Below, piece by piece: positions 817-3,331 of a stretch of DNA of 8,957 nucleotides. This stretch comes from a virus (Duplodnaviria; Heunggongvirae; Uroviricota; Caudoviricetes), in the IMG/VR virus record IMGVR_UViG_2737471848_000002, positions 1 to 8,957 of that record. One strand, 5' to 3'. Made by a program: the position numbers and the translations under genes. Numbering within the stretch: position 1 is the first letter of the stretch; each line of letters begins with the position of its first letter. The notes beneath the pieces were generated by a model. It saw only the letters and a program-made list of their open reading frames with translations, did not search any database and was not told the origin of the DNA.

Positions 817-1001
817 ACGCCACAATTAAAACGATACCAGAGCTTCTTATCCAGACAAGAGGCAATCAGACCGAAGTGGCGAGGATGCTTTCCTGCGCAA
901 GAGGAACAGTGCTCAAGTACAACCGAGACAGAAAAGGCGAGCGTCACGTAATAGTTAACGGCGTCCTGATGGTCAAACAGGGCAAGAGGGGAAGACGATG
1001 A
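813..1001 (+). CDS. ninH: NinH-like small DNA-binding protein, 62 aa
   Basis: Translation MNATIKTIPELLIQTRGNQTEVARMLSCARGTVLKYNRDRKGERHVIVNGVLMV resembles lambda NinH as recalled (MTFSVKTIPDMLVEAYGNQTEVARRLKCSRGTVRKYVDDKDGKMHAIVNDVLMV). The start overlaps the rusA stop and the stop overlaps the Q start. Confidence 0.78.
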   Translation: MNATIKTIPELLIQTRGNQTEVARMLSCARGTVLKYNRDRKGERHVIVNGVLMVKQGKRGRR

Positions 1002-1621
1002 GACTCGAAAGCGTAGCTAAATTTCATTCGCCAAAAAGCCCGATGATGAGCGACTCACCACGGGCTACAGCTTCTGACTCTCTTTCCGGTACTGATGTGA
1101 TGGCTGCTATGGGGATGGCGCAATCACAAGCCGGATTCGGAATGGCTGCATTCTGCGGTAAGCATGAACTCAGCCAGAACGACAAACAAAAGGCTATCAA
1201 CTATCTGATGCAATTTGCACACAAGGTATCGGGGAAATACCGTGGTGTGGCAAAGCTCGAAGGAAATACTAAGGCAAAGGTACTGCAAGTGCTCGCAACA
1301 TTCGCTTATGCGGATTATTGCCGTAGTGCCGCGACGCCGGGCGCAAGATGCAGAGATTGCCACGGTACAGGTCGGGCAGTTGATATAGCAAAAACAGAGC
1401 AGTGGGGGAGAGTTGTTGAGAAAGAATGCGGAAGATGCAAAGGTGTCGGCTATTCAAGAATGCCAGCAAGCGCCGCATATCGCGCTGTAACGATGCTAAT
1501 CCCAAATCTTACTCAACCCACCTGGTCACGCACTGTTAAGCCGCTGTATGACGCTCTGGTGGTTCAATGCCACAAGGAAGAGTCAATCGCAGACAACATT
1601 TTGAATGCAGTCACACGTTAG
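998..1621 (+). CDS. Q: Late-gene antitermination protein Q (lambda type), 207 aa
   Basis: 207-aa translation MRLESVAKFHSPKSPMMSDSPRATASD... with the C-terminal CRDCHGTGR...CGRCKGVG zinc-finger region is, as far as I can recall, essentially identical to phage lambda Q. It is followed by a lambda-like pR' promoter. Confidence 0.92.
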   Translation: MRLESVAKFHSPKSPMMSDSPRATASDSLSGTDVMAAMGMAQSQAGFGMAAFCGKHELSQNDKQKAINYLMQFAHKVSGKYRGVAKLEGNTKAKVLQVLATFAYADYCRSAATPGARCRDCHGTGRAVDIAKTEQWGRVVEKECGRCKGVGYSRMPASAAYRAVTMLIPNLTQPTWSRTVKPLYDALVVQCHKEESIADNILNAVTR

Positions 1622-1664
1622 CAGCATGATTGCCACGGATGGCAACATATTAACGGCATGATAT

Positions 1665-1720
1665 TGACTTTTTGAATAAAGTTGGGTAAATTTGACTCTA
1701 ACGATGGGTTGCTGCCTTCG
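1665..1720 (+). promoter_or_regulatory. Late promoter pR' with overlapping Q-utilisation (qut) site and initial transcribed pause region
   Basis: -35 TTGACT at 1665-1670, 17-bp spacer, -10 TAAATT at 1688-1693, predicted start near 1700, then AACGATGGG in the initial transcribed region. This matches the lambda pR' architecture I recall, placed immediately downstream of Q. Confidence 0.75.
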
Positions 1721-1723
1721 TTC

Positions 1724-1760
1724 AAGCCCTGATATTAACGTCTCGGGGCTTTTTGCGTTT
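1724..1760 (+). terminator. Putative promoter-proximal terminator (tR'-like) that Q-modified RNA polymerase would read through
   Basis: AAGCCC (1724-1729) pairs with GGGCTT (1746-1751), followed by TTTTGCGTTTT. The stem is short with a 16-nt loop, so intrinsic termination strength is uncertain. Confidence 0.4.
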
Positions 1761-2071
1761 TAAGCACAACGGAAAGCCTTCTTTCATGCCCTGCTTAGGC
1801 TCGACACTAAGTATTTGGGAGAGTTGGCTTCCCCATGTGGTTAAAACAGGGTTTGTAATGGGTACTCAGCCAAAGAACCTTCCTGTAGGGCGCTGAGCTA
1901 AGTCTCACGTAGTAGCCACCACATCCTAACCTGCTACCTCAGGAAATCGGTCGAAAGACGCCTGATAAACGTAACTGGTCCCCTTCAGCTATGGCTAGAC
2001 CGGCCAGTCGAAAAGCAGTATCGTCACTGCCTGCCATAGCGAACATAGACGAGCAACTAGACGAGGTTGTT

Positions 2072-2347
2072 ATGGAAAAAATCTCTGGAAGAGAACTGCA
2101 TTTTCTCAATCGAATTCTTCAATTTAAGCAGGAGAGAATTGCTGATTCTGACGTACAGGATGATGAGATTCTCATGGTTGACTCATTGGTCCGTCATGGA
2201 TATCTTGCTGTTGGCTTTTTCGACCGTGATAATAACGGCGGATATCATAGCTTAATGCAATACTACTCTCTTACCGAACTTGGCGTTGCAGCTCATAAAG
2301 ATGAATGGAAATGGAGAGGGAATCCAAATTCAAATAAAGGTCGCTAA
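2072..2347 (+). CDS. Hypothetical protein, 91 aa, acidic; moron ORF under pR'/Q control; no family recognised
   Basis: ORF with GAGG at 2063-2066 five nt upstream of ATG 2072. The in-frame upstream ATG at 1991 (118-aa version) has no Shine-Dalgarno and lies inside an 8-bp inverted repeat. The stop codon is embedded in a strong intrinsic terminator. Only one other + ORF (2067-2255, internal alternate frame) and no minus-strand ORF of 60 aa or more compete here. Confidence 0.5.
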   Translation: MEKISGRELHFLNRILQFKQERIADSDVQDDEILMVDSLVRHGYLAVGFFDRDNNGGYHSLMQYYSLTELGVAAHKDEWKWRGNPNSNKGR

Positions 2348-2363
2348 GGCGGCCTTTTTATTG
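2336..2363 (+). terminator. Rho-independent terminator overlapping the stop codon of the moron ORF
   Basis: AAAGGTCGC - TAAG - GCGGCCTTT followed by TTATTG: a GC-rich stem with one G-U pair, a tetraloop and a T-tract. Confidence 0.6.
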
Positions 2364-2652
2364 CACGACATTTCTGAAAGCGCATTCCACCAAAAACCAG
2401 ACAGACAAAACCCTCACCTTATCCGCTGTGGCTACGGTGCGGTGTGCTTTGCATAAAAGAAAACCAGCTCAATGGCTGGCTTCGTGAAAGCGGGTGGCAA
2501 GAGGTTGCGCTAACAACCTGATGCCGTTTTGCCCGTGCATATCGGTCACGAACAAATCTGATTACTAAACACAGTAGCCTGGATTTGTTCTATCAGTAAT
2601 CGACCTTATTCCTAATTAAATAGAGCAAATCCCCTCAATGAAGGGGTAGAGC

Positions 2653-2856
2653 ATGTACCGTATGGACAAAATCAGAGAATGGTTCAGTTACAGCTTCGGA
2701 GGACTGACTGCGATGGGTGGCATTCTCTCCCTGAATGACTGGGCTGTCATCATTGGTATTCTTTGTACTGTCGGCACATTTGGCATCAACTGGTACTACA
2801 AGCGCAAAGAGCGCGAGGACAGATTGAATGGCAATGTCACCGGCACTACGAAATAG
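2653..2856 (+). CDS. Class II holin of the phage 21 S21 / DLP12 EssD type (pinholin) with a dual-start motif, 67 aa
   Basis: Translation [57 protein letters not shown] has two hydrophobic segments, a Gly/Ala/Ser-rich first TMD and a charged C-terminus. The M-Y-R-M start mirrors the M-K-S-M dual start of S21. AAGGGG Shine-Dalgarno at 2641-2646. Sits immediately upstream of a SAR endolysin. Confidence 0.8.
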
Positions 2857-3331
2857 CGTAATAGCGGCGATAAGTGGCGGGGCTATTGCTATAGCATCTG
2901 TGTTAATCACTGGCCCAAGTGGTAACGATGGTCTGGAAGGTGTGAGACATAATCCTTACAAAGACATAGTTGGTGTATGGACTGTATGTTACGGGCATAC
3001 AGGAAAAGACATCATGCTCGGTAAAACGTATACCGAAGCAGAATGCAAAGCTCTCCTGAATAAAGACCTTGCCACGGTCGCCAGACAAATTAACCCGTAC
3101 ATCAAAGTCGATATACCGGAAACAACGCGCGGCGCTCTTTACTCGTTCGTCTACAACGTGGGGGCTGGCAATTTCAGAACATCGACGCTTCTTCGCAAAA
3201 TAAACCAGGGTGATATCAAAGGCGCATGTGACCAGCTACGTCGCTGGACATACGCTGGCGGTAAGCAATGGAAAGGGCTGATGACTCGCCGTGAGATTGA
3301 GCGTGAAGTCTGTTTATGGGGGCAGCAATGA
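2828..3331 (+). CDS. SAR (signal-arrest-release) endolysin, T4-lysozyme-like glycoside hydrolase family 24, R21/P1 Lyz type
   Basis: N-terminal Gly/Ala-rich weakly hydrophobic SAR segment [19 protein letters not shown], followed by the catalytic triad E-x8-D-x5-T in [17 protein letters not shown]. Near-collinear with the phage 21 / DLP12 endolysin as recalled. GAGGA at 2815-2819. The start overlaps the holin 3' end. Confidence 0.88.

What the first reader, a model, noticed from the sequence alone, without database searches (positions are those of the whole stretch)
1700..2440. Orphan moron cassette under the Q-antiterminated late promoter, in the position where Stx phages carry toxin genes
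From recollection of the lambda sequence, the window tracks lambda through Q, the pR' -35/-10 and the first few transcribed nucleotides, diverges for about 730 bp, and resumes lambda-like late-leader sequence near 2440. The divergent segment holds a weak hairpin plus U-tract (1724-1760), a ~300-nt ORF-free leader, a 91-aa acidic ORF (2072-2347) with its own Shine-Dalgarno, and a strong terminator over its stop codon. I recognise no family for the protein. The Q-to-holin slot is a classic cargo locus expressed at very high level on induction (Stx1/Stx2), so this could be a lysogenic-conversion, superinfection-exclusion, defence or anti-defence gene.
Basis: partly seen in the sequence, partly recalled or inferred. 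Interest (0 to 1): 0.8.

Follow-up and report, generated by a model that had tools for sequence, protein, structure and literature searches.

The report
RNA-led cargo cassette in prophage
A lambda-like prophage carries, just downstream of its late-gene switch, a small foreign gene of unknown function plugged into a standard "socket" (a conserved folded RNA leader in front, a terminator behind), and the same socket holds at least 19 unrelated small genes in other prophages.

Summary
Against HK022/HK140 the window is collinear except for 595 bp (1768-2362), with GCAC at both junctions. Against lambda the replaced stretch is 1711-2479. The hairpin at 1724-1756 is the backbone's own short tR' terminator, not cargo. 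The "ORF-free leader" is not anonymous. Bases 1988-2054 are a bona fide int-alpA RNA (Rfam RF02996, 43.7 bits against a cut-off of 35.8). A small hairpin then holds the Shine-Dalgarno just before ATG 2072. The 91-aa ORF (2072-2347) is a real gene: it is under purifying selection, has 40% GC against about 49% in the flanks, belongs to no family, and has a modest winged-helix-like model. The same 84-nt leader (95-100% identical position by position) and the same terminator bracket at least 19 unrelated small ORFs, mostly in the antiterminator-to-holin slot of lambdoid and P22-like prophages. Canonical int-alpA RNAs likewise sit a few bases after an upstream stop codon and about 35 nt before variable cargo genes in satellite-like elements and phage structural operons. 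No promoter was found, so expression is inferred to depend on pR' and Q. I read this as a promoterless, RNA-led, swappable late-leader cassette. The cargo's function remains unknown.

The parts
998..1621 (+). Late antiterminator Q (context, lambda-type)
   Evidence: 207-aa ORF. It lies within the 95.9% identity block with lambda Q. The 100%-identical E. coli locus annotates it as an antitermination protein.
1664..1692 (+). pR' late promoter (TTGACT-17-TAAATT) with the lambda-type Q-binding/qut region (context)
   Evidence: This is the only promoter-like match upstream of the ORF on the + strand between 1550 and the ORF start. It aligns to lambda, HK022 and HK140 pR'. HK140 annotates the matching region as promoter/qut.
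1724..1756 (+). tR'-type intrinsic terminator of the backbone (hairpin 1724-1751, U run 1750-1754)
   Evidence: Homologous to AGCCCTGAGTTAATATCTCGGGGCTTTTTGCGTTTTAAGCAC of HK140 and HK022. dG -15 kcal/mol, z -2.6. The same hairpin lies upstream of the cassette in L002, L011, L017, L020, L021 and L023; in L017, L021 and L023 the cassette starts 2-3 nt after its U-tract.
1768..2362 (+). The inserted segment as a whole (595 bp relative to HK022/HK140), with GCAC at 1764-1767 and 2363-2366
   Evidence: blastn HSPs run 1300-1767 and 2363-2648 against HK022 and HK140, with a 4-nt overlap in the subject. The segment is absent from all phage records.
1768..1987 (+). Noncoding mosaic leader borrowed from other lambdoid late leaders. 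It includes a near-invariant core at 1837-1922 and a 33-nt element at 1946-1978.
   Evidence: The core is shared with Klebsiella phage RCIP0114, an E. coli prophage with a DUF1133-type upstream gene, and 13 viral contigs. In the two annotated loci (L003, L080) it lies between a Q-like gene and the holin. The 33-nt element is shared with Sashavirus and Taipeivirus noncoding gaps. The segment is missing or only partial in sister cassettes. It has no Rfam hit and no significant folding signal.
1988..2040 (+). int-alpA RNA three-way junction (P1 1988-1995/2033-2040; invariant CUAG, CGAAAAGC, GCCUG)
   Evidence: Rfam RF02996 hit at 1988-2054, 43.7 bits against a gathering score of 35.8, E 1.7e-07. 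The MFE fold reproduces the junction. 11 of 16 pairs show compensatory changes across 26 distinct members.
2041..2071 (+). Linker plus small hairpin (2052-2058 pairs with 2065-2071). It holds the Shine-Dalgarno GAGG (2063-2066) in its loop and 3' arm and ends directly at the ATG.
   Evidence: Fold. An equivalent hairpin with different stem sequences occurs in most independent int-alpA leaders. 15 of 18 leaders have it against 202 of 547 control starts; Mann-Whitney p = 0.001 on MFE.
2072..2347 (+). Cargo gene: 91-aa orphan protein with a winged-helix-like model
   Evidence: ORF. Homologues at 71-91% identity occur in E. coli, Serratia, Yersinia and Sodalis. Differences fall mainly at the third codon position (25-27 of 35-40), and synonymous changes outnumber nonsynonymous. 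GC is 39.9% against about 49% in the flanks. AF2 pLDDT is 66, and all Foldseek hits are winged-helix proteins at E about 1e-2. The 118-aa extension from ATG 1991 is rejected.
2336..2362 (+). Cassette intrinsic terminator (stem 2336-2344/2349-2357, loop UAAG holding the stop codon, U-rich tail)
   Evidence: dG -13.4, z -3.8. The same GGTCGC-TAAG-GCGGCC-TTTTTTATTGCAC element, or a compensated GGCTGCC/GGCGGCC variant, follows unrelated cargos.
2363..2652 (+). Resumed HK022-type late leader up to the holin start (context)
   Evidence: 93-94% identity to HK022 and HK140 over 2363-2648. The holin at 2653-2856 is of the HP1 family, PF16080.

Best explanation
What it is. Bases 1768-2362 are a promoterless accessory-gene cassette inserted into the Q-dependent late leader, immediately after the phage's short tR' terminator.

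Shown:
- The working unit is a conserved frame. It comprises an int-alpA RNA three-way junction (1988-2040), a linker with a small hairpin that holds the Shine-Dalgarno next to the ATG (2041-2071), a variable ORF, and an intrinsic terminator (2336-2362).
- In this window the ORF is a 91-aa orphan protein under purifying selection, with a winged-helix-like model.
- The same 84-nt leader and the same terminator bracket at least 19 unrelated small ORFs. Wherever the flanks could be read, these sit between a late antiterminator (lambda Q, the P22 gp23 type or another type) and the holin, apart from one second copy downstream of the lysis genes.
- Canonical int-alpA RNAs sit a few bases after an upstream stop codon and about 30-45 nt before variable genes. 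They do so in integrase/AlpA/primase satellite-like elements and inside phage structural operons.

Inferred:
- Transcription starts at pR'. Without Q it stops at tR'. With Q, the polymerase reads through tR', the cassette and the cassette terminator into the lysis genes. The cargo is therefore made late and abundantly, like Stx.
- The int-alpA leader acts in cis on the inserted gene. It provides an autonomous, structurally insulated translation start, and possibly regulation or mRNA stabilisation.
- The conserved flanks let cargos be exchanged by homologous recombination.
- The cargo most likely binds a protein or nucleic acid through a winged-helix fold with an acidic "recognition" helix, and serves a phage-host or phage-phage conflict role. 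This last step is a guess.
For: Insert and junctions.

int-alpA membership.

Structure is supported by covariation.
- 11 of 16 pairs show compensatory changes.
- G-U cells (about 20) outnumber A-C cells (6) on the sense strand.
- The Yersinia copy of the same cargo has a leader with compensatory changes in P1, P2 and P3.

Same leader, different cargo:
- Fused proteins P0010-P0028 share only the translated leader sequence.
- 19 viral loci carry the leader.
- The cargos fall into 19 BLASTP clusters.
- Pairwise identity is 95-100% from -84 to -1 and drops to 0.26-0.30 after the ATG; identity returns at the terminator.

Slot: the cassette lies between antiterminator and holin.

No promoter:
- The only promoter-like match upstream of the ORF on the + strand is pR'.
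- In L017, L021 and L023 the cassette starts 2-3 nt after the tR' U-tract.
- The canonical motif starts 6-46 nt after an upstream same-strand stop codon in most loci, typically 7-8 nt.

SD hairpin.

Real gene.

Fold.

Canonical contexts.
Against: - No expression data were available. The promoter scan is a crude sigma-70 consensus search and would miss weak or alternative-sigma promoters in 1768-1987.
- Rfam classifies int-alpA as an sRNA, and no experiment shows a cis role.
- The SD-hairpin enrichment is moderate, because 37% of control starts also pass.
- The window-type leaders are nearly identical, so their 19 cargos could reflect a recent burst of recombination rather than a long-standing system.
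- The leader is rare: 6 of 5,426 complete E. coli genomes and no cultured-phage record.
- The protein model is of modest confidence (pLDDT 66) and the fold matches are weak (E about 1e-2).
- The Sodalis homologue has a decayed leader (it does not reach the Rfam cut-off), so the cargo does not strictly need it.
Confidence: 0.7

Rival explanations
1. int-alpA is a free-standing, trans-acting small RNA, as Rfam labels it. On this view it merely lies next to the ORF, and the cargo's expression does not depend on it.
For: The Rfam type is "Gene; sRNA". The junction nucleotides are invariant from Pseudomonas to E. coli elements, which would suit a conserved trans partner.
Against: There is no promoter in front and no terminator behind the motif. 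It starts 6-8 nt after upstream stop codons in most loci. A start codon with an SD follows at 27-37 nt in nearly every locus, always on the same strand. The leader stays attached to each new cargo up to the ATG.
Confidence: 0.1
2. The conserved hairpin structures are DNA-level recombination sites (attC-like or hairpin-recognising recombinase sites). They capture and move gene cassettes, and the RNA fold is incidental.
For: Homology boundaries are sharp, falling exactly at the 5' end of P1 and at the 3' hairpin. The cargos are very diverse. The motif is adjacent to integrase genes in satellite-like elements. GCAC occurs at both junctions.
Against: G-U pairs are valid only on the sense strand. 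The motif keeps a fixed spacing to the SD and ATG and has an SD-holding hairpin. No recombinase lies in the prophage late region. The 3' element is an ordinary intrinsic terminator with a U-tract. 84-nt and 30-nt flanks are enough for ordinary homologous recombination (established knowledge of Red/RecET recombineering).
Confidence: 0.1
3. This is a classic moron with its own weak promoter in 1768-1987. It is expressed from the repressed prophage and confers lysogenic conversion or superinfection exclusion.
For: It has its own terminator, deviant GC content, and is present in only some relatives. 220 nt of unexplained leader lie upstream of the int-alpA motif in this particular phage.
Against: No promoter-like site lies in 1768-2071. 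The 1768-1987 segment is absent or different in sister cassettes that keep the leader and terminator. The segment matches late-leader sequence of other phages.
Confidence: 0.1

Closest known systems
int-alpA RNA motif (Rfam RF02996; Weinberg et al. 2017, PMC5737381)
   Same: The window's 1988-2054 scores above the curated cut-off. It has the same three-way junction and the same invariant junction nucleotides.
   Different: The family is catalogued as a candidate sRNA near integrase and alpA genes (Rfam label; the description is from my own knowledge, because the paper's supplement is not held). Here it lies in a Q-dependent late leader with no int or alpA nearby. The comparative data point to an intercistronic 5' leader of variable cargo genes, with an added SD hairpin that the Rfam model does not cover.
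Late-leader cargo of lambdoid phages: stx1/stx2 in Stx phages, orf-64 in lambda
   Same: Same slot, downstream of Q, pR' and tR' and upstream of the holin. Expression is expected to be Q-dependent (Stx biology from established knowledge and PMC8065619).
   Different: There is no toxin homology. The cargo is a 91-aa orphan. The gene sits in a conserved RNA-leader/terminator frame that also holds many other ORFs.
Morons (Juhala/Hendrix definition; discussed for P22-like phages in PMC2629481)
   Same: An extra gene is present in some relatives only. It has deviant GC content and its own terminator, and lies between conserved genes.
   Different: No promoter of its own was found. The flanks are conserved across unrelated cargos, which is not part of the moron concept.
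Variable-gene hotspots of phage satellites and P2-like phages (Rousset et al. 2022, PMC9122126; P4-like int-psu hotspot, PMC8628076)
   Same: A fixed position in a mobile element holds highly variable accessory genes. In the roughly 16-kb int/AlpA/primase elements found here, the variable gene lies directly after int.
   Different: Those hotspots are defined by their flanking protein genes. None of the cargos tested here matched known defence models. A shared RNA leader at the hotspot edge has not been described, as far as I could find.
Integron gene cassettes
   Same: Promoterless ORFs with conserved structured boundaries are exchanged at a fixed site and expressed from an upstream promoter.
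   Different: There is no integron integrase, attI or attC. The conserved element is 5' of the ORF, is coupled to translation signals, and behaves as RNA. The 3' element is a terminator.
Winged-helix proteins (MarR/PadR/AspA/YjcQ-like)
   Same: The predicted topology is H-H-H-beta hairpin-H. All top Foldseek hits are winged-helix proteins, TM 0.55-0.67.
   Different: There is no sequence-family match. It is a single 91-aa domain without the MarR dimerisation helices. The putative recognition helix region (25-44) has net charge -5, which is atypical for DNA binding.

Membership tests
int-alpA RNA (RF02996) | Score at or above Rfam's curated gathering threshold | tested here: met
   43.7 bits against 35.8; the full model (1-71) is matched.
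int-alpA RNA (RF02996) | Three-way junction (P1 enclosing two hairpins) with conserved CUAG / CGAAAAGC / GCCUG | tested here: met
   The MFE fold gives the junction. The three motifs are invariant in 26 distinct sequences, and 11 of 16 pairs covary.
int-alpA RNA (RF02996) | Genomic association with integrase and alpA genes | tested here: not met
   No int or alpA lies in the 8,957-nt window, and the motif is in the late leader. The association does hold for canonical members in satellite-like elements. This is a contextual feature, not a structural one.
Moron (Hendrix/Juhala) | Extra gene between genes that are adjacent in related phages | tested here: met
   HK022 and HK140 lack 1768-2362.
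Moron (Hendrix/Juhala) | Own promoter allowing expression independent of the surrounding operon | tested here: not met
   No sigma-70-like site lies in 1768-2071. Sister cassettes start 2-3 nt after the tR' U-tract. The scan is crude, so weak or alternative promoters are not excluded.
Moron (Hendrix/Juhala) | Own terminator and deviant base composition | tested here: met
   Terminator at 2336-2362, dG -13.4, z -3.8. The ORF has 39.9% GC against about 49% in the flanks.
Stx-type late-leader cargo | Located between Q/pR'/tR' and the holin gene | tested here: met
   Q 998-1621, pR' 1664-1692, tR' 1724-1756, ORF 2072-2347, holin 2653.
Stx-type late-leader cargo | Q-dependent transcription on induction | not testable with these tools
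   This needs RNA-seq or a reporter in an induced lysogen and a Q mutant.
Winged-helix (MarR/PadR-like) proteins | Sequence-profile match to a curated family | tested here: not met
   Pfam gives no family even at E 10. PDB sequence profile: best E 0.81.
Winged-helix (MarR/PadR-like) proteins | Winged-helix fold | tested here: inconclusive
   The model has pLDDT 66 and pTM 0.51. All of the top 50 PDB hits listed are winged-helix or winged-helix-like proteins, but at E 1e-2 to 1e-1.
Integron cassette | attC site recognised by an integron integrase, in an array next to intI/attI | tested here: not met
   No integrase lies in the late region. The 3' hairpin is a U-tailed terminator. At most two cassettes were seen per phage, and they were not adjacent.
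Translational riboswitch | Conserved aptamer followed by an SD-containing expression platform | tested here: inconclusive
   A conserved junction plus an SD hairpin is present. No mutually exclusive pairing was seen on inspection, and the downstream genes share no theme.
Translational riboswitch | Specific ligand binding | not testable with these tools
   This needs in-line probing or ITC with candidate ligands.

The most novel reading that the evidence does not exclude
int-alpA is not an sRNA. It is a sensing translational switch: a conserved three-way-junction "aptamer" coupled to an SD hairpin. It binds a small molecule or a conserved host or phage factor, and so gates a whole class of hypervariable accessory (conflict) genes. 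These genes sit in lambdoid late leaders, in integrase/AlpA satellites and in front of homing-endonuclease-like genes. Leader plus terminator would then be a universal plug-in socket for newly acquired phage genes.
Probability: 0.15. Interest if true: 0.85.

Novelty: new variant of a known kind. Interest (0 to 1): 0.6.

Why it matters
Cargo genes in the Q-to-holin slot are well known, with Stx as the prime example. The notable point here is how the gene is installed. An almost invariant 84-nt structured RNA leader and a common terminator form a frame around at least 19 unrelated orphan ORFs.

The same RNA family marks variable-gene positions in satellites and inside structural operons. This gives three things:
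- A concrete, testable function for an orphan Rfam motif, as a cis leader for inserted genes.
- A sequence handle for harvesting late-expressed phage "dark-matter" genes, which are candidate anti-defence or anti-satellite factors: scan for int-alpA and take the next ORF.
- An explanation for a recurrent annotation artefact, the "MARPASRKAVSSLPAIANIDEQLDEVV" N-terminal extensions.

If the leader proves to be a sensor or translational enhancer, it would also be a compact part for expressing genes inside long phage operons.

Tried and rejected
- tRNA/tmRNA scan of the window: none found.
- Rfam at permissive E-values over 1600-2700: only int-alpA. The 1768-1987 segment has no family and no folding signal (z -0.14; z -0.28 for 1905-1990).
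- Protein identification all failed. I tried Pfam, PHROGs, PADLOC, a PDB sequence profile, an exhaustive HMMER search of 1.84 billion representatives (6 hits, only 2 full-length relatives), and Foldseek against viral structures (uncharacterised winged-helix-like proteins only).
- 118-aa ORF from ATG 1991: rejected. It is the translation of the int-alpA RNA. The ATG lies in the P1 stem. It is GTG in L008, absent in L007 and L010, and followed by an in-frame stop in the Yersinia copy.
- 47-aa ORF at 1753-1896: treated as spurious, because it overlaps tR' and the conserved noncoding core.
- The terminator scan missed both terminators because of its loop and tail rules. They were confirmed by folding.
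- The genome-contig scan with the 24-nt core found a single species representative, Pseudomonas massiliensis. It was useful for context but not for distribution.
- Literature searches found no functional study of int-alpA and no description of a leader-framed late-leader cassette.
- A hammerhead or other known self-cleaving core was considered from memory and rejected. There is no CUGAUGA, and Rfam gave no ribozyme hit.
- Riboswitch-style alternative pairing between P1 and the SD hairpin was looked for by eye and not found.
- Cargos behind the leader, and cargos of satellite-like elements, were scanned for defence or known functions. The window-type cargos are all orphans. Canonical-motif cargos include DUF6387, methyltransferases, HNH, Endonuclease VII, T5orf172 and a TnsA-like protein.
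Full report
**1. The observation**

The window is the nin-to-late region of a lambdoid prophage. In order it holds rusA, ninH, Q (998-1621), pR', a long leader, an HP1-family holin (2653), endolysin, Rz, a KilA-N gene and terminase.

blastn against lambda gives two blocks: 988-1710 (95.9%) and 2480-2648 (95.3%).

Lambda is not the closest backbone. HK022 and HK140 align to 1300-1767 and 2363-2648, with the four bases GCAC shared at both junctions (1764-1767 and 2363-2366). The real insertion is 595 bp, 1768-2362.

It folds well (dG -15, z -2.6). It belongs to the backbone and acts as tR'.

None of 50,697 phage records contains the insert. Six of 5,426 complete E. coli genomes do: four at 99% identity or more, and two carrying a 91.5% variant.

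**2. The ORF**

ATG 2072 is preceded by GAGG at 2063-2066, and the ORF ends at TAA 2345-2347. It is a real gene.
- Homologues in E. coli HL15, Yersinia proxima and Sodalis ligni are 85-87% identical in DNA.
- 25-27 of the 35-40 differences fall at third codon positions, and synonymous changes outnumber nonsynonymous.
- GC content is 39.9%, against about 49% on both sides.

The family is tiny. A word-indexed search of 5.8 billion proteins found full-length relatives only in E. coli, Serratia, Yersinia and Sodalis. An exhaustive HMMER pass over 1.84 billion representatives found just two other full-length clusters, at 67% and 45% identity. Pfam, PHROGs, PADLOC and PDB sequences gave nothing.

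The AlphaFold model is of modest quality (pLDDT 66). Its order of elements is helix, helix, helix, beta-hairpin, helix. All top PDB matches are winged-helix proteins (MarR, MepR, PadR, AspA, YjcQ) at E about 1e-2 and TM 0.55-0.67. The viral-structure library returned only uncharacterised proteins of the same shape.

The protein is mildly acidic (pI 6.0). The segment that would be the recognition helix has net charge -5. Canonical DNA binding is therefore doubtful.

**3. The leader is a known RNA**

Rfam finds one family in the window: int-alpA (RF02996) at 1988-2054 on the + strand, 43.7 bits against a curated cut-off of 35.8.

The minimum-energy fold reproduces the three-way junction. Across 26 distinct members collected here, 11 of 16 base pairs show compensatory double changes. 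CUAG, CGAAAAGC and GCCUG are invariant. G-U cells (about 20) outnumber A-C cells (6), so the sense strand is the functional one.

The Yersinia copy of the same cargo gene has a leader with different but compensated P1, P2 and P3 stems.

The 118-aa ORF listed from ATG 1991, which RefSeq annotates in strain HL15, is simply this RNA read as protein. The ATG lies in the P1 stem. It is GTG in L008 and absent in L007 and L010. The Yersinia version hits a stop codon.

**4. The same frame holds many genes**

The protein search returned 19 proteins that share only "MARPASRKAVSSLPAIANIDEQLDEVV" with the query. After that comes a methionine and an entirely different sequence. These are gene-caller fusions of the leader to other cargos.

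A scan of viral contigs with the leader core gave 19 loci. Alignment to the window shows two conserved pieces with unrelated DNA between them: 1988-2074, and the terminator around 2337-2366.

For eleven loci with different cargos, anchored on the ATG:
- Pairwise identity is 95-100% from -84 to -1.
- It falls to 0.26-0.30 immediately after the start codon.
- Upstream of -85 it is 0.3.
- It rises again to 0.87 at the terminator.

The cargos fall into 19 BLASTP clusters of 52-129 aa. None has a Pfam family and almost none a PHROG.

Wherever the flanks could be read, the cassette lies between a late antiterminator and the holin. This holds for lambda Q, for P22 gp23-type PF03589 proteins and for a third type. 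One phage of the window's own type has a second cassette after the lysis genes.

In L017, L021 and L023 the int-alpA P1 stem begins 2-3 nt after the tR' U-tract. The 220 nt at 1768-1987 of this window are therefore not part of the unit.

**5. What 1768-1987 is**

This stretch is a patchwork of noncoding modules found in other late leaders.

An 86-nt core (1837-1922) is almost invariant in Klebsiella phage RCIP0114, an E. coli prophage and 13 viral contigs. In the two annotated loci (L003, L080) it lies between a Q-like gene and the holin. In those phages it is followed by a terminator that the window lacks.

A 33-nt element (1946-1978) recurs upstream of int-alpA in several sister cassettes. 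It also occurs in noncoding gaps of the lytic Sashavirus and Taipeivirus genomes.

Neither module has an Rfam match or a folding signal. I could not assign them a function.

**6. What int-alpA does elsewhere**

A pattern for the canonical junction found 45 more viral loci, and those checked are recognised by Rfam.

About half are roughly 16-kb elements with this order: tyrosine integrase, then int-alpA 7-8 nt after the integrase stop codon, then a variable 268-313-aa gene about 35 nt later, then an antirepressor, an AlpA regulator and a D5-type primase-helicase. This layout explains the family's name. It also places the RNA at the edge of a variable-gene position next to int, comparable to the int-proximal hotspot described in P4-like satellites (PMC8628076).

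In other loci the motif lies inside structural operons and precedes inserted genes:
- an HNH-like gene between tail genes L and K of a Pseudomonas prophage;
- a T5orf172 zinc-finger protein;
- Endonuclease VII, HNH, methyltransferase and TnsA-like genes.

In most loci the motif starts 6-46 nt after a same-strand stop codon, so there is no room for a promoter.

Between the junction and the start codon (27-37 nt) most independent leaders form a short hairpin. It holds the purine-rich SD in its loop or 3' arm and ends 0-5 nt before the start codon. The stems differ completely between lineages: AGCAAC/GUUGUU here, and GGCGUU/AACGUU, UGCCU/AGGCA, AUCGAAU/AUUCGAU, GUCAC/GUGAC elsewhere. Fifteen of 18 independent leaders have such a hairpin against 202 of 547 control starts from the same loci. 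The leader hairpins are also more stable (Mann-Whitney p = 0.001).

**7. How it most likely works**

*Shown:* the layout is pR' (1664-1692), tR' (1724-1756), mosaic leader, int-alpA junction, SD hairpin, ORF, terminator (2336-2362), resumed leader, holin. The only sigma-70-like match upstream of the ORF is pR'.

*Inferred from established lambda biology:* polymerase from pR' stops at tR' unless modified by Q. Q-modified polymerase reads through tR' and the cassette terminator into the lysis and morphogenesis genes. The cargo is therefore a late, high-level product like Stx, and is not expressed from a promoter of its own in the repressed prophage. The cassette terminator would stop any unmodified polymerase that leaks past tR' before it reaches the holin.

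*Inferred from the comparative data:* the int-alpA junction and SD hairpin act in cis to give an inserted gene its own insulated translation start within a long transcript. Regulation, or protection of the mRNA 5' end after processing, is also possible. Which of these applies cannot be decided here.

*Inferred:* cargos are exchanged by homologous recombination between the 84-nt and roughly 30-nt flanks. These lengths are sufficient for Red/RecET-type recombination (own knowledge).

The cargo's role is unknown. The only hint is that the Yersinia prophage with the same cargo carries an AcrIF11-like ADP-ribosyltransferase in the same slot.

**8. Rivals**

- *Free sRNA (Rfam's label).* This is hard to reconcile with the missing promoter and terminator, the 7-nt spacing from upstream stop codons, and the fixed distance to a start codon.
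- *DNA-level cassette recombination site.* This would explain the sharp boundaries and the link to integrases. It does not explain the sense-strand G-U pairs or the coupling to translation signals.
- *Classic self-promoted moron.* This lacks a promoter and is contradicted by sister loci that abut tR'.
- *Riboswitch-like sensor.* The architecture does not exclude it, but no alternative pairing or common gene theme supports it.

**9. Novelty and verdict**

A foreign gene in the Q-to-holin slot is ordinary. An orphan winged-helix-like protein is one more piece of phage dark matter.

What appears new, as far as the searchable literature goes, is the following. The gene sits in a conserved RNA-leader/terminator frame shared by many unrelated cargos. 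The int-alpA motif behaves as the 5' leader of variable inserted genes in phages and satellites, rather than as an sRNA.

I rate this a new variant of a known kind, with interest 0.6.

Noticed in passing
window 1837-1922 (also L003 about 3000-3100, L080 about 2500-2610, L081-L093): An 86-nt noncoding core is almost invariant across phages whose flanks differ (Klebsiella phage RCIP0114, an E. coli prophage with a DUF1133-type upstream gene, 13 viral contigs). In the two annotated loci it lies in the late leader between a Q-like gene and the holin. In those phages a terminator follows it; the window lacks that terminator. It has no Rfam family, and there is too little variation to test for structure.
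   Followed up: partly
window 1946-1978; L030 1501-1534; L031 1501-1537: A 33-nt element (ATCGGTCGAAAGACGCCKGATAAACGTAACYGG) sits upstream of int-alpA in several cassettes. It also occurs in noncoding gaps of the lytic Sashavirus and Taipeivirus genomes. In Sasha it is followed by the lambda-type long late-leader hairpin (CACAACAGGTAAGAGCATTG...CAGTGCTCTTATCGTTGTG), which suggests that noncoding RNA modules are shared between temperate and lytic phages.
   Followed up: partly
window 1991-2071 and proteins P0010-P0028: Gene callers translate the int-alpA RNA as "MARPASRKAVSSLPAIANIDEQLDEVV" and fuse it to whatever ORF follows. This creates a false shared N-terminus on at least 19 unrelated protein clusters in public databases. 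RefSeq annotates the same gene as 276 nt in one strain and 357 nt in another.
   Followed up: yes
L035-L079 (for example L053 1-7200, L052 150-7900): About 16-kb satellite-like elements have this order: integrase, int-alpA 7-8 nt after the integrase stop, a variable 268-313-aa gene (DUF6387 or orphan), an antirepressor, AlpA, and a D5-type primase-helicase. The variable gene next to int resembles the int-proximal hotspot of P4-like satellites.
   Followed up: partly
L018 4545-4944 (oriented with the motif on +): A phage of the same type as the window carries a second int-alpA cassette, with a 101-aa orphan cargo and the same terminator. It lies downstream of Rz and an antirepressor-like gene, so the frame is not restricted to the Q-holin slot.
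   Followed up: partly
L033 6320-7007 (Yersinia proxima prophage): The Q-to-holin slot that holds the same int-alpA-led cargo also holds, on the opposite strand, an AcrIF11-like ADP-ribosyltransferase (PF26151) and a 64-aa ORF. This hints that the slot collects anti-defence genes.
   Followed up: no
window about 1699-1701: There is a one-base insertion in the initially transcribed region of pR' (CTCTAACGAT, against CTCAACGAT in lambda, HK022 and HK140). It lies between the -10 hexamer and the AACGAT pause-inducing element. L001 and L025 share it; L018 and L019 do not. Any effect on Q loading is unknown.
   Followed up: no
window 1764-1767 and 2363-2366: The four bases GCAC occur at both insert junctions relative to HK022 and HK140. 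T-run plus GCAC also follows the cassette terminator in most sister loci. This could be microhomology used in the original insertion, or chance.
   Followed up: no
L026 3318-4050 (minus strand), Pseudomonas massiliensis prophage: An int-alpA RNA, followed by a 214-aa ORF that I judged HNH-like by eye (Pfam found no family), is inserted between the tail genes L and K. This is the only species-representative genome with the exact 24-nt core of the window's motif.
   Followed up: partly
window 2648-2860: Homology to lambda, HK022 and HK140 stops at 2648. The holin is a 67-aa HP1-family protein (PF16080) rather than lambda S, so the lysis cassette is also mosaic.
   Followed up: no
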